Shown: in pieces, positions 24,890 to 37,048 of the stretch | How positions within the stretch are numbered: the stretch's first letter is position 1 | How the letters are laid out: each line of letters starts with the position of its first letter | Source: a virus | Virus record (IMG/VR): IMGVR_UViG_3300010388_000228 | Location: 34,183 to 98,182 of that record | Reading direction: 5' to 3' (one strand) | Length of the DNA stretch: 64,000 nucleotides | Program-made: the position numbers and the translations under genes | Notes under the pieces: generated by a model | Databases searched by the model: none | Seen by the model: the letters and a program-made list of their open reading frames with translations, nothing else | What the model was told of the DNA's origin: nothing

Positions 24890-26383
24890 ATGCAACATTT
24901 TTATGACGGTGCTATACGCAAGTATATTACCCAAACAATTAGACTCTTTAGTGAGTTTTCAGTTCGATATGGTGATGGATCTTTGCATCGAGTACCAGTA
25001 GCATACGGTGATGCAGATAGACAGGCAGTAAATATCGTTCGTCAAAACTCAGAAAACGCCCTTAACTCAGTTCCAAAAATAAGTGTATATATTCATACCT
25101 TAGAGTTAGATAAAGATCGATTATCTGATTCATCGTTTGTAAGTAAAGTAGCAGTACGTGAGCGTGATGTACAACCAGATGCATCTGGTAACCTTAAGTA
25201 TACTTCTAATCGAGGAAGAAACTATACTATTGAACGGTTAATGCCAACTCCGTTTAAACTAACATTAAAAGTTGATATATGGACTGCAAATACTGATCAA
25301 AAATTACAGTTAATGGAGCAAATCTTAATGTTGTTTAATCCTAGTTTAGATATTCAGACATCTGACAACTATCTAGATTGGACTAGTTTATCTGTAATTT
25401 ATCTTGAAGGTATTAATTGGACAAGTAAAGCAATTCCTGTCGGTACTGACACTCCTATCGACATTGCAACATTAACGTTTTCTACACCAATATGGATTAG
25501 TCCTCCTGCTAAAGTTAAACAGCTTGGTGTAATTACAAAAATTATTACTGGTATATTTGACGGTAATACTACATTAAGTGAACCAATTTTTGGTTCAGAT
25601 TATTTAGATCCGTTATCAAAATTTACCGATGCAAGTGCAGCACTGTTAACTACTGTGCTTACTATTGTTGAAGATTTTTCAATTGAAGTATCTGATAATC
25701 AAGTAGTATTATTAGATTCGCATTATCACATACCATACGAAGAATCACAGTACGAAACTCCTGAAAGAAACGGGTTAGAAGTGAGTTGGGTTGAAATACT
25801 TGAAAAATATCCTAAAAAATTTATACCTGGTTTTAGCAGAATAATTGTAACGCAATTAGGCGGAATTGAAATTGTAGGTACATTAACAGCAAATCCATTG
25901 AATGAAGCAATAATGGACGTAGTATGGGATGCGGATACTCTAAATCGAAACACGTTAATTGATAGTCAAGGTTATTTAGATTCCGATGTTAATTATTTTA
26001 ATTTGTCAACATGTCTTCGTGCATCGCCTGGAACATTTAATGCAATTATTAACCCGTACACCTTTAATCCGTACGAACAAGGCGAACTTTTAGTTCCAGG
26101 TATTCGATATTTAATTATTGAAGATATTGGTTCTGATATTAATGAAAACGGCGCACTTGCATGGAAAGCAACAAATAATGATGATTTAATTGCACACGCT
26201 AATGATATTATTGAGTGGACCGGTGAGAAATGGAATGTTATTTTTGATTCTCAAACCGAAACTGATACTATTATTTGGCAAACTAACTTAACAGGTGGTA
26301 TTCAGTTTATGTGGAACGGTGTTGTGTGGACTAAAAGTTTTGAAGGGTTTTACAGGACAGGAAAATGGCGATTGGAGTTTTAA
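24890..26383 (+). CDS. Tail terminator / sheath stabiliser (T4 gp15-like) with C-terminal extension
   Basis: FYD..IRKY......LF, VPV.YG, P.PF.L...DIW..N.DQ..Q..EQIL..FNP and WI.PP; ACTAAATA and AGGAG upstream. Confidence 0.8.
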   Translation: MQHFYDGAIRKYITQTIRLFSEFSVRYGDGSLHRVPVAYGDADRQAVNIVRQNSENALNSVPKISVYIHTLELDKDRLSDSSFVSKVAVRERDVQPDASGNLKYTSNRGRNYTIERLMPTPFKLTLKVDIWTANTDQKLQLMEQILMLFNPSLDIQTSDNYLDWTSLSVIYLEGINWTSKAIPVGTDTPIDIATLTFSTPIWISPPAKVKQLGVITKIITGIFDGNTTLSEPIFGSDYLDPLSKFTDASAALLTTVLTIVEDFSIEVSDNQVVLLDSHYHIPYEESQYETPERNGLEVSWVEILEKYPKKFIPGFSRIIVTQLGGIEIVGTLTANPLNEAIMDVVWDADTLNRNTLIDSQGYLDSDVNYFNLSTCLRASPGTFNAIINPYTFNPYEQGELLVPGIRYLIIEDIGSDINENGALAWKATNNDDLIAHANDIIEWTGEKWNVIFDSQTETDTIIWQTNLTGGIQFMWNGVVWTKSFEGFYRTGKWRLEF

Positions 26384-26814
26384 AAGATCAAATTATATGT
26401 AGCGGTGCATTAATCTATTCACAAGCTACACATAGATTCTTACTAATTCAAAAGTCGTCTGGCAAGCATCAAGGTACATGGGGACTAGTAGGTGGAACTA
26501 ATTTAGTTAATGAAAATCCATGGCAAGGGTTAGTTAGAGAAATAGAAGAAGAGATTGGGTTTCTTCCAGACATTAAAAAAACACTACCGTTAGAAAAATT
26601 TGTATCTAACGATAGTGTCTTTAATTTTCATACATATTTTTGTTTAGTTAACAACGAATTTGTGCCAACATTAAGCGATGAACATATTGCCTGGGGTTGG
26701 TTTGATATAACTGTGTTACCTAAACCAATTCATCGTGGCTTAAATCTTAGCTTGCGTAACAAAGTTATTCAAACTAAGATTCAAACATTAATCGATATTA
26801 TTGACTCTTTATAA
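26365..26814 (+). CDS. Nudix hydrolase
   Basis: WGLVGG.....E......REIEEEIG Nudix box and EH....WF. Confidence 0.85.
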   Translation: MAIGVLKDQIICSGALIYSQATHRFLLIQKSSGKHQGTWGLVGGTNLVNENPWQGLVREIEEEIGFLPDIKKTLPLEKFVSNDSVFNFHTYFCLVNNEFVPTLSDEHIAWGWFDITVLPKPIHRGLNLSLRNKVIQTKIQTLIDIIDSL

Positions 26815-28288
26815 CAGAGTCAATCCACTGTTTATGATCTACAGATTGCTGCTCGATATATTTTTTAAGTTCTTTAATTTGTTGCGATGCACTAGCAGCA
26901 TGATCGTATAGCCATCTAGATTTTAAAAAGTTTTCTAAATTATCAGTATTTTTAAATAATCCATACCCATATGCAATGCAATTAAAATCTGCAGACTCAA
27001 ACATGTCTGCAGCAGTTTTATTAAAATTGTAAATAGTTAACGGAGTACTATCAATTAAGGTTATTATATCTTTAATTTCGTCTGGAGTATTATCAGTTAA
27101 ATATTGCCAAAATGAAGAATCTGTTCGGCCAGTATTATAAAAAAATCGTATATATTTAAACGTATTTTTATATATTGTAGTCATTACTGTGTTATAATGA
27201 TTTATTATTTGAGTAGATGTAATACCGTCAAACACCTTTGTAATTAAATCTATTTGTGTAAATGCATGATGTATGTTAGTTGCTTCGAGAGGTTCAACAA
27301 ACCCACTCGACAATCCAATTGCAACACAATTGCCTACCCAATGCTCTGCATTATATCCGCTCTTAAATTTAATAATACGATCAGACGTTAAATTAACATT
27401 GTATTTTTCTTTTAACCATTTATCAAATTCAAATCGAGCCTCGTCATCTGTTGTAAATTTACTGCTATATACATACCCAGTACCATGTCGATTTGATAAC
27501 GGCACATCAAGAATCCACCCATTTTTAGTTGCCTCTGCAGTCGTATATGGCGGGATATAATCAAAATCCTTAAACAGAGGAAACGGTATTGCTCTATCGG
27601 TTGGTAACTGATCAGATAAATCAACCCAATCAACTGCTAAGTGTTTAAACAACACTTGGTCTAACCCGGATGCATCTATAAATAAGTCAGCTGAATATTC
27701 TTGCCTATTTGCTAATTTGATAGAGGTAATAGATCTATTAGTAACATGTACATCGGTGACATTTCCGTCGATAATTGTAATTTTATCTTGAAATACAAAT
27801 TCGACATATTTACTAAGAAGACTTGCATCTACATGTAATGCATGTCGATATGATAAATTGTCAGTTGACGGTAATACGTTATTATTAAAATAAAATTTAC
27901 CATAGGTATAACCAGAATCGTATTGGTTATGTAAAATATCAAATGCGTCTACTGCATTAAAATCAACAAGTACCGGATTAACTAATGATAACGATTCGTT
28001 ATGTGGAAAACTGTGAAACCATTCGCTACCGTCGTGTGTCCAATTTTTAAACTTTAAACCAAGTTTAATCGTTGCATTACAATTTCGAATTAAATCAATT
28101 GTAGAAATACCCACTGTTTTTAAATAATTGTCAAATAGTGGCGTTAGACTCTCGCCTACGCCAATACCAGGTTTACTATGGTCGTATAGCATAGTAACAT
28201 CAGCACGATCTCCCCAGTAAGATTTGAAATAGCTAGCAGCCATAGCACCGGCTGTTCCGCCACCGACTACAATAATTTTAAATGTCAT
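26798..28288 (-). CDS. Flavin-dependent tryptophan-halogenase-like protein 1
   Basis: GGGTAG, IGVGES, ATIKLG (PrnA K79-equivalent Lys), ADLFIDASG, GWILDVPL and GFVEPLEAT. Confidence 0.85.
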   Translation of the reverse strand: MTFKIIVVGGGTAGAMAASYFKSYWGDRADVTMLYDHSKPGIGVGESLTPLFDNYLKTVGISTIDLIRNCNATIKLGLKFKNWTHDGSEWFHSFPHNESLSLVNPVLVDFNAVDAFDILHNQYDSGYTYGKFYFNNNVLPSTDNLSYRHALHVDASLLSKYVEFVFQDKITIIDGNVTDVHVTNRSITSIKLANRQEYSADLFIDASGLDQVLFKHLAVDWVDLSDQLPTDRAIPFPLFKDFDYIPPYTTAEATKNGWILDVPLSNRHGTGYVYSSKFTTDDEARFEFDKWLKEKYNVNLTSDRIIKFKSGYNAEHWVGNCVAIGLSSGFVEPLEATNIHHAFTQIDLITKVFDGITSTQIINHYNTVMTTIYKNTFKYIRFFYNTGRTDSSFWQYLTDNTPDEIKDIITLIDSTPLTIYNFNKTAADMFESADFNCIAYGYGLFKNTDNLENFLKSRWLYDHAASASQQIKELKKYIEQQSVDHKQWIDSVIKSQ

Positions 28289-28910
28289 AGTTATCCTCCT
28301 CTATAGTGTATGTAAAGTTTATAATCACTCGTCTATCAACATCATTAGGTGTTGCACTTGCATGATAATGTTCACCGTTAAAACCTAATAGTCTATTTCG
28401 ACGCGGGGCTACCTTATGAAGTATAGTTTCGTTACCTAAAAAATTTTCTTTAAAATAACTAAAACTTGCATCTGCAAAGTCTTCATATTTTGACTTATCT
28501 AAATTAAAATCATACTTTTCATTATAAATTACAGTCGGTGAATCTGAATCAATCAGATATAAAATACCTACTTGATGCGGATCTGGCATATCGATATGAG
28601 GATCATTAACATATTGGCCTGTTGTTCTTGGTTGTAATACTATTCGAACTCGAATTATTTCTTTTACAGTATGTCCGAGTTTATCAATTAAGTCAAGAAG
28701 TATAGGCTGTAACATTTCACCTATTTGATTATGTGGTTGACTGTTAGTAATTGGATAGTGTGTAAAATTAAACGGGTGCGGATTTGTGCTATTGAGTTTA
28801 TCAAAAGAATACGTAATTGGGCTATAATGCCATGGAAAATCATAATCTAAAATTTTTCTTTCTAGCAATGCAATTATTGCAGGTGATACCGCATTATCGA
28901 TTATTTTCAT
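28278..28910 (-). CDS. 2OG-Fe(II) oxygenase (HxD type)
   Basis: PHID, ILYL.DSD..T, P..NR...F.G..YHAS..P and RRVIINF. Confidence 0.75.
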   Translation of the reverse strand: MKIIDNAVSPAIIALLERKILDYDFPWHYSPITYSFDKLNSTNPHPFNFTHYPITNSQPHNQIGEMLQPILLDLIDKLGHTVKEIIRVRIVLQPRTTGQYVNDPHIDMPDPHQVGILYLIDSDSPTVIYNEKYDFNLDKSKYEDFADASFSYFKENFLGNETILHKVAPRRNRLLGFNGEHYHASATPNDVDRRVIINFTYTIEEDNYDI

Positions 28911-28972
28911 AGAGTTGCTAACCTCACAAGTCCTGCAATGCTATTTGGTAGATTTACGTTGTAATTTAACAT
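28907..28972 (-). CDS. Unannotated 21-aa peptide MLNYNVNLPNSIAGLVRLATL
   Basis: AAGGAG-7nt-ATG directly after a GATAAGTA promoter-like motif; its TGA overlaps the oxygenase ATG (ATGA). Confidence 0.55.
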   Translation of the reverse strand: MLNYNVNLPNSIAGLVRLATL

Positions 28973-28989
28973 ATAGTGTCTCCTTTTTT

Positions 28990-29035
28990 TACTTATCAGA
29001 ATACTATGTTTGTGAAAATCAATTCTGATAAGTAA
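28990..29035. promoter_or_regulatory. 14-bp inverted repeat holding divergent late-like promoters (GATAAGTA)
   Basis: TTACTTATCAGAAT (28990-29003) ... ATTCTGATAAGTAA (29022-29035) between the two divergent halogenase operons. Confidence 0.65.
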
Positions 29036-29058
29036 CTTCATATTAAAAAGGAATAACT

Positions 29059-30645
29059 ATGCCTAAAAAAATTGAAAAAGTAGTGATTGTAGGTGGTGGA
29101 TCAGCTGGATGGATGAGTGCTGCTACATTGATTAATTTTTTTCCTAATAAACAAATTGTTGTTGTTGAAAGTCCAGATGTTCCTGCAGTAGGAGTCGGTG
29201 AAAGTACACTTGGTGGGATACGACACTGGATGTATGCGTTAGGAATTAATGAAAAAGACTTCATGCAGTATACAAATGCATCTTATAAAATGAGTATTAA
29301 GTTTACTGATTTTTATAATAAAGATGCTGGTTCGTTTCATTACCCATTCGGAAGTCCGAGATTATTTGATACTGAAACCGGATTAGCGGAATGGCAAGCA
29401 AAAAAAGCGTTGTATCCCGATACGCCAGTTGATGATTATTGTAGAAATTATTATTCAACAATGCCGTTAATCGAAAACAACAAATTTAGCAATAACGATA
29501 ATGGTGAATTTGATACTTTTAGACCTGATCTAGATGTTGCGTATCATTTTGAAGCATCGTTATTTGCTAGTTGGTTACGTGACAAATATTGTATTCCCCG
29601 TGGAGTAATTCATATTTTAGAAAACGTATCTAACATTACTACATCAGACATTGGAATAGAAAGTTTAACATTAGCTAACGGTGATACTGTTATTGCCGAT
29701 TTGTTTGTTGATTGTACTGGATGGAAAAGTATGTTGCTAGGGGATGCGCTTGATGAACCGTTTACTTCATACGAAGATATCCTTCCAAATAACCGAGCAT
29801 GGGCAGTTCAAGTACCATATACTAATAAAGAACTCGAATTAGAACCGTATACTAACTGTACTGCAATCGGACATGGTTGGGTGTGGAATATTCCACTATG
29901 GAGTCGATTAGGAACTGGCTATGTTTATAGCGATAAATTTATAACTCCGGAAGATGCACTACAAGAGTTTAAAGATTATTTAAATTCAAATAAAATGACA
30001 GTTTATAATCCTACCCGTACTGATGCGTTAGAGTTTAAAGATATATCAATGCGTATCGGTATTCACGAACGTACCTGGGTTAAAAACGTAGTTGCAATTG
30101 GGTTATCTGCAGGCTTTATTGAACCACTTGAAAGTAACGGGTTGTTTACTGTTCACGAGTTTTTGTTATCGCTTGTTGCAGTGCTTCAACGTGAGTACAT
30201 TAATCAATGGGATCGCGATACTTATAACACTGCAACTTTAGAAATATTTAATAATTTATCAGAATTTGTAGCGTTACACTATGCGTTAAGTGTTCGAGAT
30301 GATACTAATTATTGGCATGAAATGTCTAATAAAACATTTAGCCCTAATATGATAAAAAAGATTCCAACCCTAACTAAGGGGTTTAATGACCTAGTTAATA
30401 AAAAAATGTTTGAATTTGATCACAATCCAGTAGGCGGAATGCACTGCGTTGCTACTGGTATGAATTTTTTAGTACTAAGTAAGATTAATTTATTGTTTGC
30501 TGACCATGTTAATGGAGTAGATGTTAAAGAACGAGTAGATGCGTTTATTAACAGTCGATCAATACTTCAAGAAAAATGGCGTAAGGCTGCAGATAATTCA
30601 AAATTGTTAGTTGACTATTTAAAAGAGAATATACATAATGATTGA
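29059..30645 (+). CDS. Flavin-dependent tryptophan-halogenase-like protein 2 (all canonical motifs)
   Basis: GGGSAGW, VGVGEST, ASYKMSIKF (catalytic Lys), ADLFVDCTG, GWVWNIPL (WxWxIP) and GFIEPLESNG. Confidence 0.9.
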   Translation: MPKKIEKVVIVGGGSAGWMSAATLINFFPNKQIVVVESPDVPAVGVGESTLGGIRHWMYALGINEKDFMQYTNASYKMSIKFTDFYNKDAGSFHYPFGSPRLFDTETGLAEWQAKKALYPDTPVDDYCRNYYSTMPLIENNKFSNNDNGEFDTFRPDLDVAYHFEASLFASWLRDKYCIPRGVIHILENVSNITTSDIGIESLTLANGDTVIADLFVDCTGWKSMLLGDALDEPFTSYEDILPNNRAWAVQVPYTNKELELEPYTNCTAIGHGWVWNIPLWSRLGTGYVYSDKFITPEDALQEFKDYLNSNKMTVYNPTRTDALEFKDISMRIGIHERTWVKNVVAIGLSAGFIEPLESNGLFTVHEFLLSLVAVLQREYINQWDRDTYNTATLEIFNNLSEFVALHYALSVRDDTNYWHEMSNKTFSPNMIKKIPTLTKGFNDLVNKKMFEFDHNPVGGMHCVATGMNFLVLSKINLLFADHVNGVDVKERVDAFINSRSILQEKWRKAADNSKLLVDYLKENIHND

Positions 30646-31243
30646 TATACATCCGTTATTTTCAACTCCTGTATTCATAAGTACACCTGATGAGGAGGCA
30701 ACTCCTCATCATAACGTATTAGAATATTGTAAAACTTTAAAATACAATTTAAATATAGGTCAAAATTGGGCAAGTGAAGACACTGATATTTTGTCAAACC
30801 CGGTATTTAAAGAAATTCGAGTCTTAATACAACATGCAATAGACCAATATACAAAGAACATAATGATGTGGGACAACACTGAGTTTTATATTACACAATC
30901 GTGGATTAATGTTACTCCTAAAGATACAGAACACCATGTACATTATCATAATAATAGTATTATTAGTGGCACGTTTTACCTTCAAACAGTTAGTAACGAC
31001 TATATTATGTTTCGACATGATAAAAAGTCAATAATTGAATTTGATAGAAGTTCATTTAACATTTGGAATTCCGATACATGGAAACTTAATGTTTCAACTA
31101 ATGCTATTGCAATTTTCCCATCGTCAATATATCACAATGTTGAAAAACATGATGAAAATATTGACAGAGTTAGTATCGCATTTAATGTGTTCTTTCGAGG
31201 TGAAGTTGGTAGCAAAGAAAAATTAACATACTTAAAATTATAA
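30638..31243 (+). CDS. Putative 2OG-Fe(II) oxygenase (TIGR02466-like)
   Basis: LFSTP, SWIN, HVHYH, ISGTFY, FPS.I.H.V and RVSIAFN. Confidence 0.8.
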   Translation: MIDIHPLFSTPVFISTPDEEATPHHNVLEYCKTLKYNLNIGQNWASEDTDILSNPVFKEIRVLIQHAIDQYTKNIMMWDNTEFYITQSWINVTPKDTEHHVHYHNNSIISGTFYLQTVSNDYIMFRHDKKSIIEFDRSSFNIWNSDTWKLNVSTNAIAIFPSSIYHNVEKHDENIDRVSIAFNVFFRGEVGSKEKLTYLKL

Positions 31244-31246
31244 CAT

Positions 31247-32170
31247 ATGAATACAGCATTTATTATTAACGGAGGCGCTGGTCGTGTGCTATGCGCAATT
31301 CCTGCATTAGAAATTTACGAAGCAAGTTATCCCAATGACGATTTTATTATTGTTGTCGAATACTGGATTGATTTATTTAAAGGGCATCCAACATTATATA
31401 AACGATGTTTTGATGCTGCTCATAAAAATTTGTTTGAAGATAAAATTAAAAGTCGACAGATAGTAGCACCTGAACCATATCAACTGTGGGAATATTATAA
31501 TCAAAAAGCGTCAATTGCACAAGGATTTGATATTGCAATAAATCATAGCGGACTACGCCCAATTCATCGGCCGTCAATTTATTTGTCTAACGCCGAACGG
31601 AACGGAGGAGTTGCATCAGTTAACGCTATTAGAAAGGAACATAATAAAAAAATTATCGTTTTCCAACCGTTCGGAAGAGGTTCTGCATTTCATAACAATG
31701 AAATAGTAGACGATGTATTTGGAAAATCATTTTTTATTAGCGATGTTATTAATATTATTAAGAATTTACAAGCAAAATATACGATTTTATTAATGTCCGA
31801 ATCTACTATAGAATTTGATAAATTAGACAAAAGTGTACAAGTTGCACAAATACCAAATTTATCAGTTCGACAATGGATGGCAATCATTAATGCTTCGGAT
31901 TATTTTTTAGGGTGTGATAGTTTAGGACAGCATATTGCATATTCATTAAATAAGCCAGCTACTGTGGTGTTAGGTAGTACATTTAAAGAAAATGTATCAT
32001 ATCCAAATGTTGACAATTTTAACATAGTTGATGTTGGTGAAGATAAAAAAGAGTATTCACCGTTGCGCGTATGCTATGATACCGCAATTGATATTAACAA
32101 TGAAAATTTAATGAGATTAAATCAGCATCATATTTCTGATATTATTACATTAATTGAAAACGCAATATGA
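31247..32170 (+). CDS. GT9-like (heptosyltransferase-fold) glycosyltransferase
   Basis: GGAGRVLCAIPAL, IVFQP.G and RQWMAII..SDYFLG.DS...H.A..L.KP..V..GST (GT9 C-terminal signature). Confidence 0.7.
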   Translation: MNTAFIINGGAGRVLCAIPALEIYEASYPNDDFIIVVEYWIDLFKGHPTLYKRCFDAAHKNLFEDKIKSRQIVAPEPYQLWEYYNQKASIAQGFDIAINHSGLRPIHRPSIYLSNAERNGGVASVNAIRKEHNKKIIVFQPFGRGSAFHNNEIVDDVFGKSFFISDVINIIKNLQAKYTILLMSESTIEFDKLDKSVQVAQIPNLSVRQWMAIINASDYFLGCDSLGQHIAYSLNKPATVVLGSTFKENVSYPNVDNFNIVDVGEDKKEYSPLRVCYDTAIDINNENLMRLNQHHISDIITLIENAI

Positions 32171-32772
32171 CGCCTGAATTACTTCCGTTATTTCCAACTG
32201 CTATCTATAAACATAAAATTCGATCGTTATTAGATACTGAATTATTAGCAGTTAACACTGCTCCTATGATTGCACAAGGTCTCGGAAATCATAGTTCAGT
32301 TAACACATATATTTTAGAGTTAGAAGAGTTATTGGAATTAAAAAATGAAATATTACATAATATTAACGTATATTTCTGTGATGTATTACACTTCACAAAC
32401 GAAGTTTATATAACAAATTCGTGGATTAATATTACTGATTCAAACGAAATGCATATGGGTCACACTCATACTAATAGCATCATTTCAGGAGTGTATTATA
32501 TAGATGTAGATAATAGCCAACCAATGATTTCTTTTAATCGGATTGCTCCTCCATTTTTATTAAACATGTTACCGACTGAATTTAATATATTTAATTCAAT
32601 CGAATGGGACGTTCCTGTTGAAAATAACAGCATTGTGTTATTTCCGTCATCATGCTATCATTATGTTAAACGAAATGAATCAGCAAATAAAAGAATTAGC
32701 ATTGCATTTAACACATTTATTAGAGGGCAGCTTGGAACTAAATTTTCAGGTGCCGATTTAGATTTAAGGTAA
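32167..32772 (+). CDS. Putative 2OG-Fe(II) oxygenase (TIGR02466-like)
   Basis: LFPT, SWIN, HMGHTH, ISGVYY, FPS..YH.V and RISIAFN. Confidence 0.8.
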   Translation: MTPELLPLFPTAIYKHKIRSLLDTELLAVNTAPMIAQGLGNHSSVNTYILELEELLELKNEILHNINVYFCDVLHFTNEVYITNSWINITDSNEMHMGHTHTNSIISGVYYIDVDNSQPMISFNRIAPPFLLNMLPTEFNIFNSIEWDVPVENNSIVLFPSSCYHYVKRNESANKRISIAFNTFIRGQLGTKFSGADLDLR

Positions 32773-32777
32773 AAACT

Positions 32778-34571
32778 ATGAATAAAAAACCAATTTGGAT
32801 TGCCGGAGTTGCTAGAGGTCATAATGCCGGCGTATGCTTGTTAAAAGATGGAGAAATTGTATTTTCAATTGAAGAAGAACGATTGTCAAGAGTTAAATAT
32901 GACGGCGGACCATTTGCCAGCATTCTTAAAATATTAGAGTATACCGATAGACTTGACTTTTTAGTATTTTCTCATACTACTCCCCTACACACTGCAGGAA
33001 CTATTGAGTTTTCCGGTGATAATATATATGTTGGATTTGCTAGAAAATTAGGGTTAATTTCAAAAGATCTAGGTTACGGTATGCAACATCCTCAAGTTAT
33101 TGATCTTAGCCACTTACACCATAAAATGCATGCAGCATGTGCATTTTATAGATCAGGTTGGGATGATGCAGTTGCATTAGTTGTTGATGGTGCTGGAACA
33201 TATTGTCCAACAAGTATTGATGATCAAGAATTAACATCTTGGGAAGTTGAATCAATCTACACCTGCGAGTATCCTGCAAGTTTTAAAACGTTATATAAAC
33301 ACCTTGGGTTGCCTAACAGCGTTAGAACACACATTGAACCTGCTGTCGCTAGTCAGTTTTTTGATGAAGACGGCACGCATGAATCTGTGTTTTCAGACAG
33401 AGCAGGAATCGTAAAAGTATACGAAGCAGTAACTAAATATTGCGGATTTCAGGAAATTGATGCAGGAAAAACCATGGGGTTATTCCCGTACGGAAAAGAA
33501 AATTTAAATATTCCTCCGTTATTTGAACAGTACGGAGATCTATATCTTTCAAACAGAAATTTTGTTATTCCCACTTACCCTGCAGGTGCAAAATTAAACA
33601 ATCATTTATTTCCGTTTTTAGATACAAATAATTATGATGATCTAACCCTAGAACAAAATAGACGTGACCTTGCGTATGCAGTACAACTGCAATCTCAAGA
33701 GCAGGTTGTTAAATTAATTAAAAAAGCAGTTACAATGTCTGGAAAGAATAAGGTAGTTATTAGTGGCGGGTATGGGTTAAACTGCGTTGCAAACTACTAT
33801 TATTTAAGCCAGCTACAAAACGAAGGTATCGAATTATATATTGAACCAATAAGTAACGATGCAGGTACTGCAATAGGAGCTGCATTGTATTTTTGGCATA
33901 TGTATACTAACAATACAACTATCCGCACGTATAATTCAGTTTACTTAGGACCGCTATTAAATTATTCGATTGATAACATACTGTCAATTGTATCAACTAC
34001 TAGTGTTGATATTACTGATGCTACTTACGCTGATATTGTTGATTTAATAATTAAAAAGAACATTGTTACTATTTTTCAAGGACGGTCGGAAAATGGGCCA
34101 CGTGCATTGGGTAATCGATCAGTTTTGTTTGATCCTAGATTTGTAGACGGTAAGGACTTTGTTAATTCAGTAAAACATCGTGAATATTTTAGACCGTTTG
34201 CTGGTACAATTTTAGAAGAACATGTGCATGAATGGTTTGATCTCAGAGGAATGAAAAATAGTCCGCATATGATGTATGCAGTAAATTGCCAACCAGGTGT
34301 TGAACATCAAATACCAAGCATTATTCATGTTGACGGTACTTGCAGAATTCAAACAGTTACCGAAGAACAGAATTTTCATTATTATAATTTGATAAAAGAA
34401 TTTTATAATCAAACAAGTGTTCCGGTATTATTTAATACAAGCTTCAACTTAGGTGGTGAACCGTTAGTTGAAACATTAGAAGATGCAATTTGGACTTTAC
34501 AAAATTCAGATATTGAATACTTGTATTTGCCAGAATTTAATAAATTAATTACTATACCAAATAAGGAGTAA
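32778..34571 (+). CDS. O-carbamoyltransferase (NodU/CmcH/TobZ family)
   Basis: GHN, EEERLSR.K, HH..HA, DGAG, GK.MGL.PYG, SGG..LNCVAN, DAG.AIGAA, E.GPRALGNRS, K.RE.FRPFA, HVDGT.RIQTV and NTSFN..GEP. Confidence 0.92.
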   Translation: MNKKPIWIAGVARGHNAGVCLLKDGEIVFSIEEERLSRVKYDGGPFASILKILEYTDRLDFLVFSHTTPLHTAGTIEFSGDNIYVGFARKLGLISKDLGYGMQHPQVIDLSHLHHKMHAACAFYRSGWDDAVALVVDGAGTYCPTSIDDQELTSWEVESIYTCEYPASFKTLYKHLGLPNSVRTHIEPAVASQFFDEDGTHESVFSDRAGIVKVYEAVTKYCGFQEIDAGKTMGLFPYGKENLNIPPLFEQYGDLYLSNRNFVIPTYPAGAKLNNHLFPFLDTNNYDDLTLEQNRRDLAYAVQLQSQEQVVKLIKKAVTMSGKNKVVISGGYGLNCVANYYYLSQLQNEGIELYIEPISNDAGTAIGAALYFWHMYTNNTTIRTYNSVYLGPLLNYSIDNILSIVSTTSVDITDATYADIVDLIIKKNIVTIFQGRSENGPRALGNRSVLFDPRFVDGKDFVNSVKHREYFRPFAGTILEEHVHEWFDLRGMKNSPHMMYAVNCQPGVEHQIPSIIHVDGTCRIQTVTEEQNFHYYNLIKEFYNQTSVPVLFNTSFNLGGEPLVETLEDAIWTLQNSDIEYLYLPEFNKLITIPNKE

Positions 34572-34572
34572 T

Positions 34573-35307
34573 ATGTCAGTTACTACACCACCATGGTTAT
34601 CATGGAACTTTTTAGAATTTAAAAGCGAGCCGGCAATTAGCCCATTTGCTCCTGAATATCATTACATATTTGCCGAAAATAAAATTGTTAATGTTGATTT
34701 TAAAAAAATTGCATCTATAATTTTAGAAAAAGAAAAAACAATAATTGAATCCACTTCCCCAACATCAGATGCTTATACAGGGTTAGGTGATGATAGTTTA
34801 ACATCAAGATGGAAATCATTTAACGTGTTTGCATGGTCTGAACCGGAAATAGAAAAACTTAAATCGCAGATATATTTACGATATTTAGAATTTTTGAAAG
34901 CATATAATGTGCCTAGATCTAATGTTAAAATTCAATGTTGGGCAAATGTATTAAGAGAAGGCGGAGAAATAAATCCACATATACATTCGACAGGTAAATG
35001 GGCATATTTAGGCGGCCATGTAACTGTTCAGTGCGAAGACACGTATACAGTTTATATTAATCCAATTAATCAAATAAACGATCCAGAAACATATAATAGC
35101 CGTAACGAAGTTGGAAAAATTACATTTTTTCAACATAACATTCCTCATTTTACTACACCACATTATAGTACAACTGGTTTAGAAAGAATTACTATCGCGT
35201 TTGACCTATCAATGGAAGAATTTGTTAACTCGTTTGATCATAATGCACATCCTGAATGGAATAATTATGTAGTGTTTGACGATCCTAATTTAGAGAAAGT
35301 GGCATGA
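34573..35307 (+). CDS. Putative 2OG-Fe(II) oxygenase
   Basis: CWANVLR.G..I.PHIH, G....F.....H.T and RITIAFD. Confidence 0.7.
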   Translation: MSVTTPPWLSWNFLEFKSEPAISPFAPEYHYIFAENKIVNVDFKKIASIILEKEKTIIESTSPTSDAYTGLGDDSLTSRWKSFNVFAWSEPEIEKLKSQIYLRYLEFLKAYNVPRSNVKIQCWANVLREGGEINPHIHSTGKWAYLGGHVTVQCEDTYTVYINPINQINDPETYNSRNEVGKITFFQHNIPHFTTPHYSTTGLERITIAFDLSMEEFVNSFDHNAHPEWNNYVVFDDPNLEKVA

Positions 35308-36473
35308 AAATAGCAGTTATCGGAGTAGGTACTGCAGGTATAACATCATTATGTCATGCATTAAGATGGTTAACAACTGACGAAACTACAATTACGTCAA
35401 TTTATGACCCATCTGTTAAAATACTTGAAATCGGTGAATCAATGGATCCTGGGTTTCCTACTGTATTATTTGAAGGTACTGGGTTTACATTAGTAGAAGA
35501 TGCAAATAAATTAGATGCTACTATGAAATTAGGCGTAACTTGGAAAGGTTGGAGAGATCAAGAATTTACCTCGTTAATGCATCCTCCGTCATATGCGATG
35601 CATTTTAATAATGGAAAGTTAAAGGATTATTGTTTTAGTAAATTTGAAGAACTTTGGGATACTTATTTTAATATTATTGAAGGGGCAGTTACTACTTTAG
35701 AAAATAAAGATTCGCACGTAGTAGTTGTTGTAAACGAATCTGAGTATACATTTGATTATGTAATAGATTGTCGTGGCACTCCTACCGATTTTTCAGAATA
35801 TGTTATAGTTAATAATCCGGTTAATCATTGCCTTGTGCATTCTGTAGATAAACCAGGAGACTGGAATACAACTATTCATCAAGCGCATACTAATGGTTGG
35901 ATGTTTGGTATCCCGTTATCTTCTCGCCAAGGATGGGGGTATCTATATAATGATAATATAACATTAAGAGACGATGCAGTAAAAGAGTTAGAGGAGCTAT
36001 TTAACACAACTGAGTTAAATTTAAAAGAATTTAAATTCACTAGTTATTATGCTAAAAAGTTTTTTGATGGACGAATTATAAAAAATGGGAACGCTGCTAT
36101 GTTTTTTGAACCAATGGAGGCATTATCTGGTTATTTCTATAGTACAGTGTTACGTAATTTAGTTGATTACATATACGGTGAATGTTCAGTCAATGACGTA
36201 AATAGCCGATTAACAGATGCTGCTCAAGATATTGAAAATTTTATCAATTATGCATATCACGGCGGTTCAACATTTAACAGTCCGTTTTGGAATAATACAG
36301 TTATTCAAACATCTAAAAAATTACAAAATGATTCTAGATGGCAAATAACTTTATCTGAAATAAAATCATGTATACACAACGGTAAAATTATACACGAACG
36401 TTCTATTGCAAGATGGTACATTCGGCATTGGATTAATTGGGATAAGAATTTAGGTTATAATTATTTTACTTAA
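35304..36473 (+). CDS. Short flavin-dependent halogenase-like protein 3
   Basis: GVGTAG, IGES, ATMKLG, DYVIDCRG, GWMFGIPL and FFEPMEA; 389 aa, shorter than PrnA-type enzymes. Confidence 0.8.
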   Translation: MKIAVIGVGTAGITSLCHALRWLTTDETTITSIYDPSVKILEIGESMDPGFPTVLFEGTGFTLVEDANKLDATMKLGVTWKGWRDQEFTSLMHPPSYAMHFNNGKLKDYCFSKFEELWDTYFNIIEGAVTTLENKDSHVVVVVNESEYTFDYVIDCRGTPTDFSEYVIVNNPVNHCLVHSVDKPGDWNTTIHQAHTNGWMFGIPLSSRQGWGYLYNDNITLRDDAVKELEELFNTTELNLKEFKFTSYYAKKFFDGRIIKNGNAAMFFEPMEALSGYFYSTVLRNLVDYIYGECSVNDVNSRLTDAAQDIENFINYAYHGGSTFNSPFWNNTVIQTSKKLQNDSRWQITLSEIKSCIHNGKIIHERSIARWYIRHWINWDKNLGYNYFT

Positions 36474-36506
36474 TAAAAAACGGAAGCACATGCTTCCGTT
36501 TTTTAT
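36473..36506. terminator. Bidirectional intrinsic terminator
   Basis: ATAAAAAACGGAAGCA-ca-TGCTTCCGTTTTTTAT between the convergent halogenase operon and the tail-fibre operon. Confidence 0.9.
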
Positions 36507-36514
36507 ACTTAACA

Positions 36515-37024
36515 TTATAAAGGATTAGCAGGTGGCAGTGACCATTTCCCCACTTTTGATAAAAGTGTTGGCGGTGTTGGCCACGGGATATCTTTTCTTA
36601 ATTTTATATTTTCAAAGTCTATCGTGTCGGTCATTTCTCGTAATGCAGTGCGATACTCTGCCCACGCTGCTTTTTCTTCTACAGTTAATGGAGCATCATT
36701 AAGTTGTGTCCAATCGCAAGACATAAAGTAATATTCTCTAGGACTAAGTATCCATCTTCTAACTTTTTCCTCAATGGATAACTCAGATATATCCCATAGT
36801 TGCTCAATTGTACCGTCGGAGTTTTTAACAATTTCTCCCCGTGTACAATTTATATCTTCTATATTATCTATAATAGGTAAGTCATAGTTTAAAACTACTG
36901 CAAGATTGTGAGCTAATAAATCCGATTCTAAAAACTCAGTAGTATCTAATATACCAACAACGTTTTCCCACAGTATCGGATAATCAATTGGATCGCCATT
37001 TTCGTCAATTTTAATATATATCAT
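36515..37024 (-). CDS. Tail fibre assembly chaperone-like protein
   Basis: C-terminal R......DWTQL.D.PL...K..W..YR..LR......WP.PP motif; directly follows the fibre gene. Confidence 0.75.
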   Translation of the reverse strand: MIYIKIDENGDPIDYPILWENVVGILDTTEFLESDLLAHNLAVVLNYDLPIIDNIEDINCTRGEIVKNSDGTIEQLWDISELSIEEKVRRWILSPREYYFMSCDWTQLNDAPLTVEEKAAWAEYRTALREMTDTIDFENIKLRKDIPWPTPPTLLSKVGKWSLPPANPL

Positions 37025-37048
37025 ATGTTGTTTTCCTTTAATTATGTA

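What the first reader, a model, noticed from the sequence alone, without database searches (positions are those of the whole stretch)
26798..36473. Phage tailoring cassette: 3 flavin halogenases, 4 2OG-Fe(II) oxygenases, a GT9 and a carbamoyltransferase wedged among virion genes
Seen: a 9.7-kb unit of nine modifying enzymes in two divergent operons. It has its own paired promoter-like motifs, ends at a bidirectional terminator, and lies between neck/tail-completion genes and tail-fibre genes. No nucleotide-synthesis gene (thymidylate-synthase or kinase type) or flavin reductase is inside it. Established: 2OG oxygenases create hydroxyls, GTs glycosylate them, NodU/TobZ enzymes O-carbamoylate hydroxyls or sugars, PrnA-type enzymes halogenate aromatics, and a phage halogenase (VirX1) is known. 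Inference: this looks like a coupled biosynthetic-cluster-like pathway (hydroxylate, glycosylate, carbamoylate, halogenate). Its late-type promoters and location favour decoration of virion proteins or a peptide (receptor tuning, shielding) over classical DNA hypermodification.
Basis: partly seen in the sequence, partly recalled or inferred. Interest (0 to 1): 0.85.

Follow-up and report, generated by a model that had tools for sequence, protein, structure and literature searches.

The report
Phage tailoring-enzyme cassette beside fibre genes
An uncultured T4-like aquatic phage carries nine intact enzyme genes (three halogenases, four iron/2-oxoglutarate oxygenases, a sugar transferase and a carbamoyl-adding enzyme) between its neck and tail-fibre genes; clusters of this kind are known from marine cyanophages since 2010, and their target, possibly the phage's own fibre tips, has never been measured.

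Summary
All nine genes at 26798-36473 are intact and I confirmed each enzyme type. That includes the ORF with no Pfam hit, which is a prolyl-hydroxylase-like 2OG oxygenase that phage databases label 'DNA endonuclease V'. The neck and fibre flanks, the two diverging arms and the bidirectional terminator are real.

Two details fail:
- The paired motif (TGATAAGTAAC, inverted) is specific to the cassette. It is not the phage's late promoter (ATAAATA).
- The 21-aa 'leader peptide' ORF is the leftover 3' end of a lost oxygenase gene.

Comparison with 120 related IMG/VR loci shows a stable core: halogenase B, PF13759 oxygenase(s), a GT9-fold transferase and a carbamoyltransferase. This core always lies beside a fibre chaperone and a glycine-rich fibre gene. 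The other five genes come and go. The transferase-carbamoyltransferase pair was adjacent in all 39 loci that reached that far, usually with no halogenase nearby.

Halogenase/dioxygenase arrays in cyanophages were described by Iyer et al. in 2010, and VirX1 is a characterised member. This scan has already reported the same kind of cassette on at least ten other genomes. Decoration of the fibre tip is the best-supported reading, at about 0.4, but it rests only on gene position. I rate it a new variant of a known kind, of moderate interest.

The parts
26798..28288 (-). Halogenase A (496 aa), flavin-dependent, PrnA/VirX1 family. WxWxIP is degenerate (WILDVP).
   Evidence: PF04820 at 1e-91; phrog_2928. 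GxGxxG, the catalytic Lys and EPxE are kept.
28278..28910 (-). Oxygenase 0 (210 aa), a PHD-like 2OG-Fe(II) dioxygenase of the Syn9 gp53 type, labelled 'DNA endonuclease V' in phage databases.
   Evidence: phrog_274 at 3e-34. The family keeps HxD...H...R. AlphaFold pLDDT 90.8; Foldseek top hits PolD, PHD2 and FIH.
28907..28972 (-). 21-codon ORF: the 3' relic of a lost PF13759 oxygenase gene, not a precursor peptide.
   Evidence: Its DNA aligns with the 3' end of the intact 220-aa oxygenase gene directly upstream of oxygenase 0 in L046, L076 and L047. The distal His is changed and a 21-nt deletion removes the Arg. No homologue elsewhere.
28989..29035 (.). 14-bp perfect inverted repeat (core TGATAAGTAA) in the divergent intergenic region. 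It is a cassette-specific regulatory element: back-to-back promoters or an operator.
   Evidence: Both copies are conserved about 37 nt apart upstream of halogenase B in L046, L064 and L076. These are the only two copies in the 64-kb window.
29059..30645 (+). Halogenase B (528 aa), VirX1-like, with all canonical motifs. It is part of the conserved core.
   Evidence: PF04820 at 1e-103. PDB 6QGM (VirX1) at 9e-100. GWVWNIPL and FIEPLESNG are intact.
30638..31243 (+). Oxygenase 1 (201 aa), PF13759/TIGR02466 2OG-Fe(II) oxygenase; core member.
   Evidence: PF13759 at 1e-15 and phrog_81 at 1e-35. Present in every GT9/CT-linked locus that extends far enough.
31247..32170 (+). GT9-fold glycosyltransferase (307 aa), phage family phrog_8954; core member.
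   Evidence: phrog_8954 at 2e-115. AlphaFold pLDDT 88.8; Foldseek top hits 3tov, WaaC, WaaF and TibC. Invariant GxDSxGxH.
32167..32772 (+). Oxygenase 2 (201 aa), PF13759; variable member.
   Evidence: PF13759 at 5e-19. Its only PDB relatives are uncharacterised proteins 2RG4 and 3BVC.
32778..34571 (+). NodU/CmcH/TobZ-type O-carbamoyltransferase (597 aa); core member.
   Evidence: PF16861 at 8e-57 and PF02543 at 3e-26. PDB relatives 7XB6, GdmN, NovN and TobZ. Adjacent to GT9 in every locus that reaches far enough.
34573..35307 (+). Oxygenase 3 (244 aa), a divergent PF13759-like oxygenase; variable member.
   Evidence: PF13759 at 26.1 bits (cut-off 27) and phrog_81 at 3e-20. 75-76% identical in L046, L047 and L076.
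35304..36473 (+). Halogenase C (389 aa), a short paralogue lacking an ~80-aa insert and the C-terminal substrate module. WxWxIP reads WMFGIP.
   Evidence: PF04820 at 6e-29, in two stretches. GVGTAG, the catalytic Lys and EPxE are kept. 73% identical in the closest relatives.
36473..36506 (.). Bidirectional intrinsic terminator (A6-stem-T6) between the cassette and the fibre chaperone gene.
   Evidence: -20 and -19.5 kcal/mol on the two strands, z -10.5 and -7.7. An equivalent hairpin sits at the same junction in L046.
36515..38944 (-). Fibre assembly chaperone (169 aa) and a 631-aa fibre with a Gly/Cys/Trp-rich C-terminal tip. These are constant neighbours of the core and the candidate substrate.
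   Evidence: PF16778 at 4e-12. phrog_4912 and phrog_4474. Sequence. Homologues lie next to halogenase B or GT9 in relatives.
24890..26814 (+). gp15 tail-sheath stabiliser and a NUDIX hydrolase: the conserved neck-side border, not part of the cassette.
   Evidence: PF16724 and PF00293. The gp15-NUDIX pair also borders the island in L004, L046, L058, L097 and others.

Best explanation
Shown: the cassette is an intact copy of a recurrent accessory module of T4-like aquatic phages.
- Core: a VirX1-like flavin halogenase, PF13759 2OG-Fe(II) oxygenase(s), a GT9-fold glycosyltransferase and a NodU/TobZ-type O-carbamoyltransferase.
- Variable shell: two more halogenase paralogues and more oxygenases.
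- Position: the slot between the neck genes and the fibre-tip genes.
- Content: tailoring enzymes only. There is no scaffold synthetase, no precursor peptide and no flavin reductase.

Inferred: the enzymes act on a ready-made macromolecule, most likely the phage's own glycine-rich fibre tip or adhesin as the adjacent chaperone folds it. The proposed steps are:
1. The oxygenases hydroxylate side chains.
2. The GT9 enzyme adds a sugar, heptose-like by family.
3. The carbamoyltransferase O-carbamoylates that sugar.
4. The halogenases, using host FADH2, halogenate exposed aromatic residues.

The result would be a tuned or shielded host-recognition surface.
For: - All nine enzyme calls were verified.
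- GT9 and the carbamoyltransferase are adjacent in all 39 loci that extend far enough of the 42 found with GT9. They are usually co-directional with fibre genes and flanked by them. L005, for example, runs giant fibre, small fibre protein, PF16778 chaperone, Gly_rich protein, GT9, carbamoyltransferase, giant fibre.
- About 20 of the 80 best halogenase-B loci carry fibre, chaperone, halogenase B, oxygenase, GT9 and carbamoyltransferase.
- On the halogenase-B tree, the GT9/CT-linked copies all fall on one side. That side holds 15 linked rows and 3 loci too short to score, but the node joining its two sub-clades is weak (67).
- On the GT9 tree, linkage to a halogenase needs only one change, with support 93.
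- The gene set survives three different arrangements, including an in-place flip of the five-gene core between the window and L046.
- Oxygenase 0 is structurally closest to protein prolyl hydroxylases.
- VirX1 has an unusually open active site that accepts bulky substrates (PMC8407142). Peptide and protein Trp halogenases exist: SrpI, MibH and ChlH (PMC10858898, 10.1101/2025.01.12.632611).
- A protein-heptosylating GT9 relative, TibC, is among the fold matches.
- The fibre is Ser/Thr-rich, with Trp/Tyr in its Gly-rich tip.
- The near-complete relative has no hydroxymethylase.
Against: - No modification has been measured in any phage of this kind. The link to fibres is positional only, and this slot is a known hot spot for accessory genes in T4-like phages (PMC2984593).
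- The cassette lacks the phage's late-promoter motif, and relative L094 has a consensus sigma70 (early-type) promoter before halogenase B. Co-expression with virion genes is therefore not shown.
- The stable linkage could be plain vertical inheritance.
- The GT9 enzyme lacks the Cys-rich iron finger of the TibC-type protein heptosyltransferases: only one conserved Cys.
- No phage GmhA (the first heptose-pathway enzyme) was found in the 94%-complete relative, so the donor sugar is unknown.
- GT9/CT and the halogenases occur apart in most phages, so they need not share a substrate.
Confidence: 0.4

Rival explanations
1. The enzymes tailor a small molecule or free amino acid/peptide of the host, yielding a halogenated, hydroxylated, glycosylated metabolite during infection. 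This is the secondary-metabolite reading of Iyer et al. 2010 for the Syn9 array.
For: - Iyer et al. (PMC2938197) found the same halogenase plus multi-dioxygenase theme in bacterial clusters with peptide synthetases and TonB receptors.
- The closest solved relatives of the carbamoyltransferase are antibiotic tailoring enzymes: GdmN, NovN and TobZ.
- VirX1 halogenates many small aromatics in vitro (PMC8407142).
- L094 has an early-type promoter.
Against: - No scaffold-forming enzyme (NRPS, PKS, ATP-grasp) and no exporter lies in the cassette or in the relatives' versions. Every extra gene there is another oxygenase or halogenase, apart from one cupin-like ORF and one 258-aa ORF with no hit.
- This reading does not explain the constant position beside fibre-tip and chaperone genes.
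Confidence: 0.2
2. There is no single pathway. The slot between the neck and fibre genes is a hyperplastic hot spot where independent accessory genes accumulate: a GT9/carbamoyltransferase pair, halogenase/oxygenase arrays and others. The nine genes are neighbours by descent, not by shared function.
For: - GT9/CT occur without a halogenase in 39 of 42 GT9 loci. Many halogenase loci lack GT9/CT but sit in the same slot between NUDIX-gp15 and the fibre genes.
- Five of the nine genes vary among close relatives.
- One oxygenase gene has decayed to a relic here.
- Hyperplastic regions are well known in T4-like phages (PMC2984593).
- In S-RIM44 the carbamoyltransferase and the halogenases lie 88 kb apart.
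Against: - The four-gene core is kept contiguous in two deep halogenase-B sub-clades at about 50% identity and through inversions.
- Overlapping or abutting start and stop codons throughout the plus arm point to co-translation as one unit.
Confidence: 0.2
3. The GT9 and carbamoyltransferase enzymes, with helpers, remodel a host envelope glycan during infection. The change would be LPS-core-like heptosylation and 7-O-carbamoylation, serving to block superinfection or to stop progeny sticking to debris.
For: - The best folds are the LPS heptosyltransferases WaaC and WaaF.
- Pseudomonas core oligosaccharide clusters pair heptosyltransferases with the carbamoyltransferase WapO, which carbamoylates HepII (PMC8005017).
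- Cultured carriers (S-SSM7, S-CAM1) place ADP-heptose pathway genes next to the pair.
- The cyanophage literature calls these genes 'LPS genes' (PMC2984593).
Against: - The Pfam GT9 score is below the cut-off, and the phage family is distinct (phrog_8954).
- Halogenases and PHD-like oxygenases have no known role in LPS.
- Host-takeover genes are not normally placed inside fibre gene runs, as they are in L005 and L094.
Confidence: 0.15
4. The cassette hypermodifies phage DNA by hydroxylating, glycosylating and carbamoylating a base.
For: Phage DNA glycosyltransferases and 2OG base hydroxylases exist (established knowledge). A NUDIX gene abuts the cassette and a dNMP kinase gene lies 4 kb away.
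Against: - No ThyA/dCMP-hydroxymethylase family gene in the window's contig or in the 94%-complete 345-kb relative.
- NUDIX-gp15 and the kinase are conserved core neighbours whatever the island holds.
- None of the oxygenases is a TET/JBP or AlkB type.
Confidence: 0.04

Closest known systems
Syn9/Syn10 gp40-gp54 array of cyanomyoviruses: two Trp-type halogenases (one is VirX1) plus about ten tandem dioxygenases (Iyer et al. 2010, PMC2938197; PDB 6QGM)
   Same: A T4-like phage with several flavin halogenase paralogues next to several non-identical 2OG-Fe(II) dioxygenases. Halogenase B is 38% identical to VirX1 in the alignment (41% by tblastn) and keeps all its motifs. Oxygenase 0 belongs to the Syn9 gp53 family. 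The array lies downstream of fibre-like genes, and its natural substrate is unknown.
   Different: This cassette has fewer dioxygenases, and Pfam detects no JmjC/MINA-type member or dUTPase-fold gene. It adds a GT9-fold transferase and a carbamoyltransferase inside the array. It is split into two divergent arms with its own inverted-repeat element. The near-complete relative has no psbA, so the host may not be a cyanobacterium.
GT9-like/carbamoyltransferase pair ('LPS genes', T4-GC302/303) of S-SSM7, S-CAM1/3, P-SSM2/5 and Sf-FS3
   Same: Orthologous pair: GT9 41-47% identical and carbamoyltransferase 46-60% identical. The two genes are adjacent and sit among fibre genes near the neck genes.
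   Different: In the cultured cyanophages the pair comes with ADP-heptose pathway genes and mostly without halogenases. Here an oxygenase gene separates the two, halogenases flank them, and no heptose-pathway gene was found in 98 kb or in the 345-kb relative.
Pseudomonas LPS core cluster: heptosyltransferases WaaC/WaaF plus carbamoyltransferase WapO (PA5005)
   Same: A GT9-fold enzyme paired with a NodU-family carbamoyltransferase. In Pseudomonas the carbamoyl group goes onto the heptose that the GT9 enzyme installed (PMC8005017).
   Different: Sequence similarity to WaaC/WaaF is marginal: Pfam E 0.005 and 10-14% identity in the structural alignment. The context is a phage fibre module, not an LPS operon, and the acceptor is unknown.
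Virion glycosylation in mycobacteriophages (Freeman et al. 2023, cited in PMC12801897) and TibC/AAH heptosylation of autotransporter adhesins (PDB 4RB4)
   Same: Glycosyltransferase genes placed beside structural genes that decorate surface-exposed virion or adhesin proteins. TibC is a GT9-fold enzyme acting on a repetitive Ser-rich adhesin.
   Different: The phage GT9 lacks the Cys-rich iron finger of TibC. No carbamoylation, hydroxylation or halogenation is known in those systems. Nothing has been measured for this phage group.
RiPP peptide halogenation (SrpI, MibH, ChlH)
   Same: Flavin-dependent halogenases that act on Trp within ribosomal peptides or proteins (PMC10858898; 10.1101/2025.01.12.632611).
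   Different: No precursor peptide gene is present. The only small ORF is a gene relic.

Membership tests
Flavin-dependent (Trp-type) halogenase, PF04820 | Profile match above the curated cut-off | tested here: met
   All three proteins score 308, 348 and 102 bits against a cut-off of 21.
Flavin-dependent (Trp-type) halogenase, PF04820 | GxGxxG flavin-binding motif and the catalytic lysine (K79 of PrnA/VirX1) | tested here: met
   GGGTAG, GGGSAG and GVGTAG are present. The Lys column is invariant in the alignment with VirX1.
Flavin-dependent (Trp-type) halogenase, PF04820 | WxWxIP motif | tested here: inconclusive
   Intact only in halogenase B (GWVWNIPL). Halogenase A has WILDVP and halogenase C has WMFGIP. 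The two variants could be atypical halogenases or monooxygenase-like.
Flavin-dependent (Trp-type) halogenase, PF04820 | Halogenating activity and a partner flavin reductase | not testable with these tools
   No PF01613 reductase in the contig or in two relatives' records. Host supply is assumed.
2OG-Fe(II) dioxygenase superfamily | HxD/E...H iron triad plus a 2OG-binding Arg, on a double-stranded beta-helix fold | tested here: met
   Oxygenase 0: H105, D107, H183 and R194 are conserved in 18 homologues, and its fold matches PolD, PHD2 and FIH. Oxygenases 1 and 2 score above the PF13759 cut-off. Oxygenase 3 scores 26.1 against 27 and hits phrog_81 at 3e-20.
T4 endonuclease V (DenV), the database label of oxygenase 0's family | Pyrimidine-dimer glycosylase fold (PF03013) | tested here: not met
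   No Pfam hit, and the model is a beta-helix oxygenase. The label is an annotation error.
CAZy GT9 heptosyltransferase | GT-B fold closest to GT9 members | tested here: met
   Foldseek ranks 1-11 are all GT9: 3tov, WaaC, WaaF and TibC, with E down to 4e-10.
CAZy GT9 heptosyltransferase | Sequence-profile membership (PF01075 cut-off) | tested here: not met
   16.7 bits against a cut-off of 22. NCBIfam heptosyltransferase models score far below their cut-offs. I file it as GT9-fold, not as a proven heptosyltransferase.
CAZy GT9 heptosyltransferase | ADP-heptose as donor | not testable with these tools
   No GmhA or nucleotidyltransferase gene in the contig, and no GmhA in the 345-kb relative. 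Cultured carriers do encode the pathway next to the pair.
TibC/AAH protein heptosyltransferases | Cys-rich iron-finger insertion | tested here: not met
   Only one nearly invariant Cys in 29 homologues. TibC ranks below WaaC and WaaF.
NodU/CmcH/TobZ O-carbamoyltransferase | Both the Kae1-like N-domain and the YrdC-like C-domain above their cut-offs | tested here: met
   PF02543 at 93 bits and PF16861 at 192 bits. PDB relatives 7XB6, GdmN, NovN and TobZ, with E from 2e-58 to 1e-37.
Syn9-type phage halogenase/dioxygenase array (Iyer et al. 2010) | Several Trp-type halogenases next to several non-identical dioxygenases in a T4-like phage | tested here: met
   Three halogenases and four dioxygenases of two families. 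The Syn10 locus was compared directly.
Syn9-type phage halogenase/dioxygenase array (Iyer et al. 2010) | JmjC/MINA-type member and a dUTPase-fold gene | tested here: not met
   Neither is detected among the nine proteins by Pfam, PHROGs or NCBIfam.
RiPP biosynthetic cluster | A precursor peptide gene conserved with the enzymes | tested here: not met
   The 21-aa ORF is the relic of an oxygenase gene and has no homologue in 125 loci.
Phage DNA hypermodification pathway (hydroxymethyl-pyrimidine route) | ThyA-family hydroxymethylase | tested here: not met
   PF00303 is absent from the contig and from four relatives, including one 94% complete.

The most novel reading that the evidence does not exclude
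A widespread group of aquatic T4-like phages chemically rewrites its own receptor-binding fibre tips after translation. The changes would be hydroxylation, a carbamoylated heptose-type sugar and halogenated aromatic residues. That would make these the first halogenated and first carbamoyl-glycosylated virion proteins known, and would finally give VirX1-type viral halogenases a natural substrate.
Probability: 0.3. Interest if true: 0.85.

Novelty: new variant of a known kind. Interest (0 to 1): 0.5.

Why it matters
Viral halogenases and the large oxygenase arrays of cyanophages have had no known natural substrate since the Syn9 genome (2007), the analysis of Iyer et al. (2010) and the VirX1 work (2019). 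This cassette and its relatives narrow the question.

- The module contains only tailoring enzymes.
- It has a four-gene core that stays together.
- That core is always beside a fibre chaperone and a glycine-rich fibre tip.

Together these make a concrete experiment possible with phages already in culture: virion mass spectrometry and co-expression of fibre plus enzymes.

If the fibre is the target, this would be a new way for phages to tune or hide their host-recognition surface. It would also yield enzymes useful for site-specific protein halogenation and glycan carbamoylation. If the target is not the fibre, the cassette is one more example of a known accessory island.

Tried and rejected
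- **Near-identical DNA in the 50,697 phage records.** None found beyond one 113-nt stretch. The phage is uncultured and only distantly related to isolates.
- **The 21-aa ORF as a RiPP precursor or leader.** Rejected; it is a gene relic.
- **The GATAAGTA pair as late promoters.** Rejected. The late motif ATAAATA is depleted across the window (16 found against 44 expected), most copies lie just upstream of structural genes, and there is none in the cassette's intergenic region. The pair is not shared by the more distant relatives L003 and L004.
- **An NtcA-type GTA-N8-TAC site in the intergenic region.** None seen by eye.
- **'DNA endonuclease V' for 28278-28910.** Rejected by fold.
- **Phage-encoded ADP-heptose pathway, flavin reductase, ThyA and psbA.** PF13580 (GmhA) and PF01467 were searched in the contig, and PF13580, PF01613, PF00303 and PF00124 in relatives. 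None was found. The window's contig is only about 27% of a genome.
- **More short halogenase-C homologues.** A single-sequence pattern scan found only four loci, too few for a structure prediction.
- **The Syn9 transcriptome paper** (10.1038/ismej.2015.210) is not held, so published expression timing for the Syn9 array could not be checked.
- **The sigma70 scan of the region.** It found no more sites than shuffled sequence (77 against 86).

Full report
**What is there.**
The window is the 3' 64 kb of a 98-kb IMG/VR viral contig. CheckV rates the contig about 27% complete. Its composition is uniform, around 0.33 GC.

Two genes run leftward: halogenase A and oxygenase 0. Seven run rightward: halogenase B, oxygenase 1, GT9-like, oxygenase 2, carbamoyltransferase, oxygenase 3 and halogenase C. 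Start and stop codons overlap or abut along the whole right arm.

On the left lie a gp13-like adaptor, a virion protein, the gp15 sheath stabiliser and a NUDIX hydrolase. On the right lie a fibre-assembly chaperone (PF16778), a 631-aa fibre with a Gly/Cys/Trp-rich tip, a 106-aa fibre-like protein and a 3688-aa fibre. A perfect A6-stem-T6 hairpin at 36473-36506 closes the cassette. It folds at about -20 kcal/mol on either strand.

**The enzymes.**
- *Halogenases.* Halogenases A and B are full-length PF04820 proteins. B's best solved relative is VirX1 of cyanophage Syn10 (9e-100). I aligned all three with VirX1 taken from the Syn10 record. All three keep GxGxxG, the catalytic lysine and the EPxE glutamates. 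Only B keeps WxWxIP and the Fx.Px.Sx.G motif. A reads WILDVP. C reads WMFGIP and lacks an ~80-residue insert and the C-terminal substrate module.
- *PF13759 oxygenases.* Oxygenases 1 and 2 are PF13759/TIGR02466 proteins. Oxygenase 3 is 0.9 bit under the Pfam cut-off but clear in PHROGs. The only solved PF13759 relatives are uncharacterised structural-genomics proteins.
- *Oxygenase 0.* It has no Pfam hit, and PHROGs calls it 'DNA endonuclease V'. Eighteen homologues conserve H-x-D...H...R. Its AlphaFold model (pLDDT 90.8) matches PolD, the HIF prolyl hydroxylase PHD2, FIH and AsqJ. The protein atlas places it among viral 2OG oxygenase clusters. So it is a fourth dioxygenase, of the Syn9 gp53 family, and the DenV label is wrong.
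- *GT9-like protein.* It belongs to a phage family (phrog_8954, 2e-115). Its model (pLDDT 88.8) has GT9 3tov, WaaC, WaaF and TibC as its eleven best folds. It is below the Pfam GT9 cut-off and lacks TibC's Cys-rich finger.
- *Carbamoyltransferase.* It has both NodU/TobZ domains, and its solved relatives are GdmN, NovN and TobZ.

**Regulatory details.**
The divergent intergenic region holds a 14-bp perfect inverted repeat with core TGATAAGTAA. Both copies recur with the same spacing of about 37 nt upstream of halogenase B in the closest relatives L046, L064 and L076. They are the only two copies in the window. The repeat is absent from the more distant L003 and L004.

The phage's late-promoter motif is the T4/cyanophage-type ATAAATA (PMC2984593). 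It is depleted in the window (16 found against 44 expected). Most copies lie just upstream of structural genes, and none lies in the cassette's intergenic region. In relative L094 a consensus TTGACA-N16-TATAAT precedes halogenase B. So 'late-type promoters' is not supported, and expression timing is open.

**The small ORF.**
The 21-codon ORF with a strong Shine-Dalgarno sequence (28907-28972, minus strand) was noted by first readers as a possible leader peptide. It aligns at the DNA level with the last codons of an intact 220-aa PF13759 oxygenase gene. That gene lies directly upstream of oxygenase 0 in L046, L076 and L047. In the window's copy the distal His is changed and a 21-nt deletion removes the Arg. 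The ORF has no homologue in 125 loci. It is a gene relic.

**Comparative picture.**
- *Cultured cyanomyoviruses.* GT9-like and carbamoyltransferase genes are adjacent in S-CAM1, S-CAM3, P-SSM2, P-SSM5, S-SSM7 and Sf-FS3. In S-SSM7 the pair sits with a halogenase, the 'DenV' oxygenase and ADP-heptose pathway genes between fibre genes and gp13-15. Sf-CH11 has oxygenases and a halogenase in the same slot.
- *Syn10.* Two halogenases, one of them VirX1, are followed by a run of genes of about 170-260 codons. Three of them aligned here with the window's oxygenases. This is the array that Iyer et al. described.
- *IMG/VR loci found with GT9.* The carbamoyltransferase is adjacent in all 39 of the 42 loci that extend far enough. 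The pair is usually co-directional with fibre, chaperone and Gly-rich genes and flanked by them. Only three of these loci have halogenases.
- *IMG/VR loci found with halogenase B.* There are more than 598 relatives. Among the best 80, about 20 carry fibre, chaperone, halogenase B, oxygenase, GT9 and carbamoyltransferase. Others carry halogenases and oxygenases only, still between NUDIX-gp15 and the fibre genes.
- *Trees.* On a quick halogenase-B tree, the GT9/CT-linked copies fall on one side (15 rows plus 3 loci too short to score). They form two well-supported sub-clades, but the node joining them is weak. On the GT9 tree, linkage to a halogenase needs only one change, with support 93.
- *Rearrangement.* The closest relatives (70-72% identity for halogenase B) hold the same genes, but the block from halogenase B to the carbamoyltransferase is flipped in place relative to its flanks. 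A third arrangement has everything co-directional with the fibre genes.
- *Extra genes in relatives.* Where identifiable, these are again oxygenases, halogenase paralogues or a cupin.

Thus the nine genes are a conserved four-gene core (halogenase B, PF13759 oxygenase, GT9, carbamoyltransferase) plus a variable shell.

**Genome-level context.**
A 345-kb relative is 94% complete. It lacks psbA, so these may not be cyanophages. It also lacks a ThyA/hydroxymethylase family gene, GmhA and a flavin reductase.

**Interpretation.**
The cassette holds tailoring enzymes only, and nothing in it builds a scaffold. The substrate must therefore already exist in the infected cell.

The strongest regularity is positional. 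The core travels with a fibre chaperone and a glycine-rich fibre tip, and the GT9/carbamoyltransferase pair sits inside fibre gene runs in dozens of phages. Three further points agree with this: oxygenase 0 resembles a protein prolyl hydroxylase, VirX1 has an open active site (PMC8407142), and peptide and protein halogenases are known (PMC10858898). On this basis I favour post-translational decoration of the fibre tip, at about 0.4.

This remains inference. The slot is a hot spot, timing is unknown, the linkage could be inherited rather than selected, and no modified virion protein has been reported. The rival readings are a small-molecule product (Iyer et al.), remodelling of a host envelope glycan (the WaaC/WapO analogy, PMC8005017), unrelated neighbours in a hot spot, and DNA modification. 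The last is the least likely.

**Novelty.**
Halogenase/dioxygenase arrays in cyanophages, VirX1, and sporadic carbamoyltransferase and prnA genes are all published (PMC2938197, PMC3037559, PMC2984593, PMC8407142). In the held literature I found no description of the GT9/carbamoyltransferase pair as a fibre-linked unit, or of its fusion with the halogenase array.

The scan itself has reported the same kind of cassette on at least ten other genomes, with follow-ups reaching similar conclusions. This window adds four things:
- the in-place flip of the core block;
- the cassette-specific inverted repeat;
- the relic that disposes of the 'leader peptide';
- fold evidence against the DenV label.

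Noticed in passing
window 28907-28972 (-); L046:15566-16228: The SD-led 21-codon ORF ahead of oxygenase 0 is the decayed 3' end of a PF13759 oxygenase gene that is intact in close relatives. This bears on the sibling finding that proposes it as a RiPP leader.
   Followed up: yes
window 29059-34571 versus L046:10001-15576: The five-gene block from halogenase B to the carbamoyltransferase is inverted in place between this phage and its closest relatives, while both flanks keep their orientation. A third, fully co-directional arrangement occurs in L052-L054.
   Followed up: partly
window-wide, e.g. 15198, 17667, 21883, 23380, 50386, 50401, 59214: ATAAATA is strongly depleted (16 found against about 44 expected), and most copies lie just upstream of structural genes. 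This fits a T4-type late promoter under counter-selection elsewhere.
   Followed up: partly
G001 (IMGVR_UViG_3300027708_000012, 345 kb, 94% complete; holds L043/L050): The near-complete relative is a jumbo T4-like genome with no psbA, no ThyA-family gene, no GmhA and no flavin reductase. The group's best protein matches are to cyanomyoviruses, but its host may not be a cyanobacterium.
   Followed up: partly
window 28278-28910; phrog_274; RefSeq 'denV' of Syn19, P-SSM7, S-SM2, S-RIM12 and others: The family annotated 'DNA endonuclease V' across cyanomyovirus records is a PHD-like 2OG-Fe(II) dioxygenase by motif and fold. The annotation looks systematically wrong.
   Followed up: yes
L094:9925-9958: A consensus sigma70-type promoter (TTGACA-N16-TATAAT) sits between the fibre chaperone gene and the halogenase in a relative whose module is co-directional with its fibre genes. 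This hints at early or dual-phase expression.
   Followed up: no
window 26798-26814: The NUDIX gene and halogenase A converge and overlap by 17 nt, with no terminator between them.
   Followed up: no
window 37049-37735 (-): The fibre's last ~230 residues are a Gly-rich tract packed with Cys, plus Trp/Tyr and a His cluster, in DNA much more GC-rich than its surroundings (0.42 against 0.33). This could be a polyglycine-type receptor-binding tip; its fold was not modelled.
   Followed up: no
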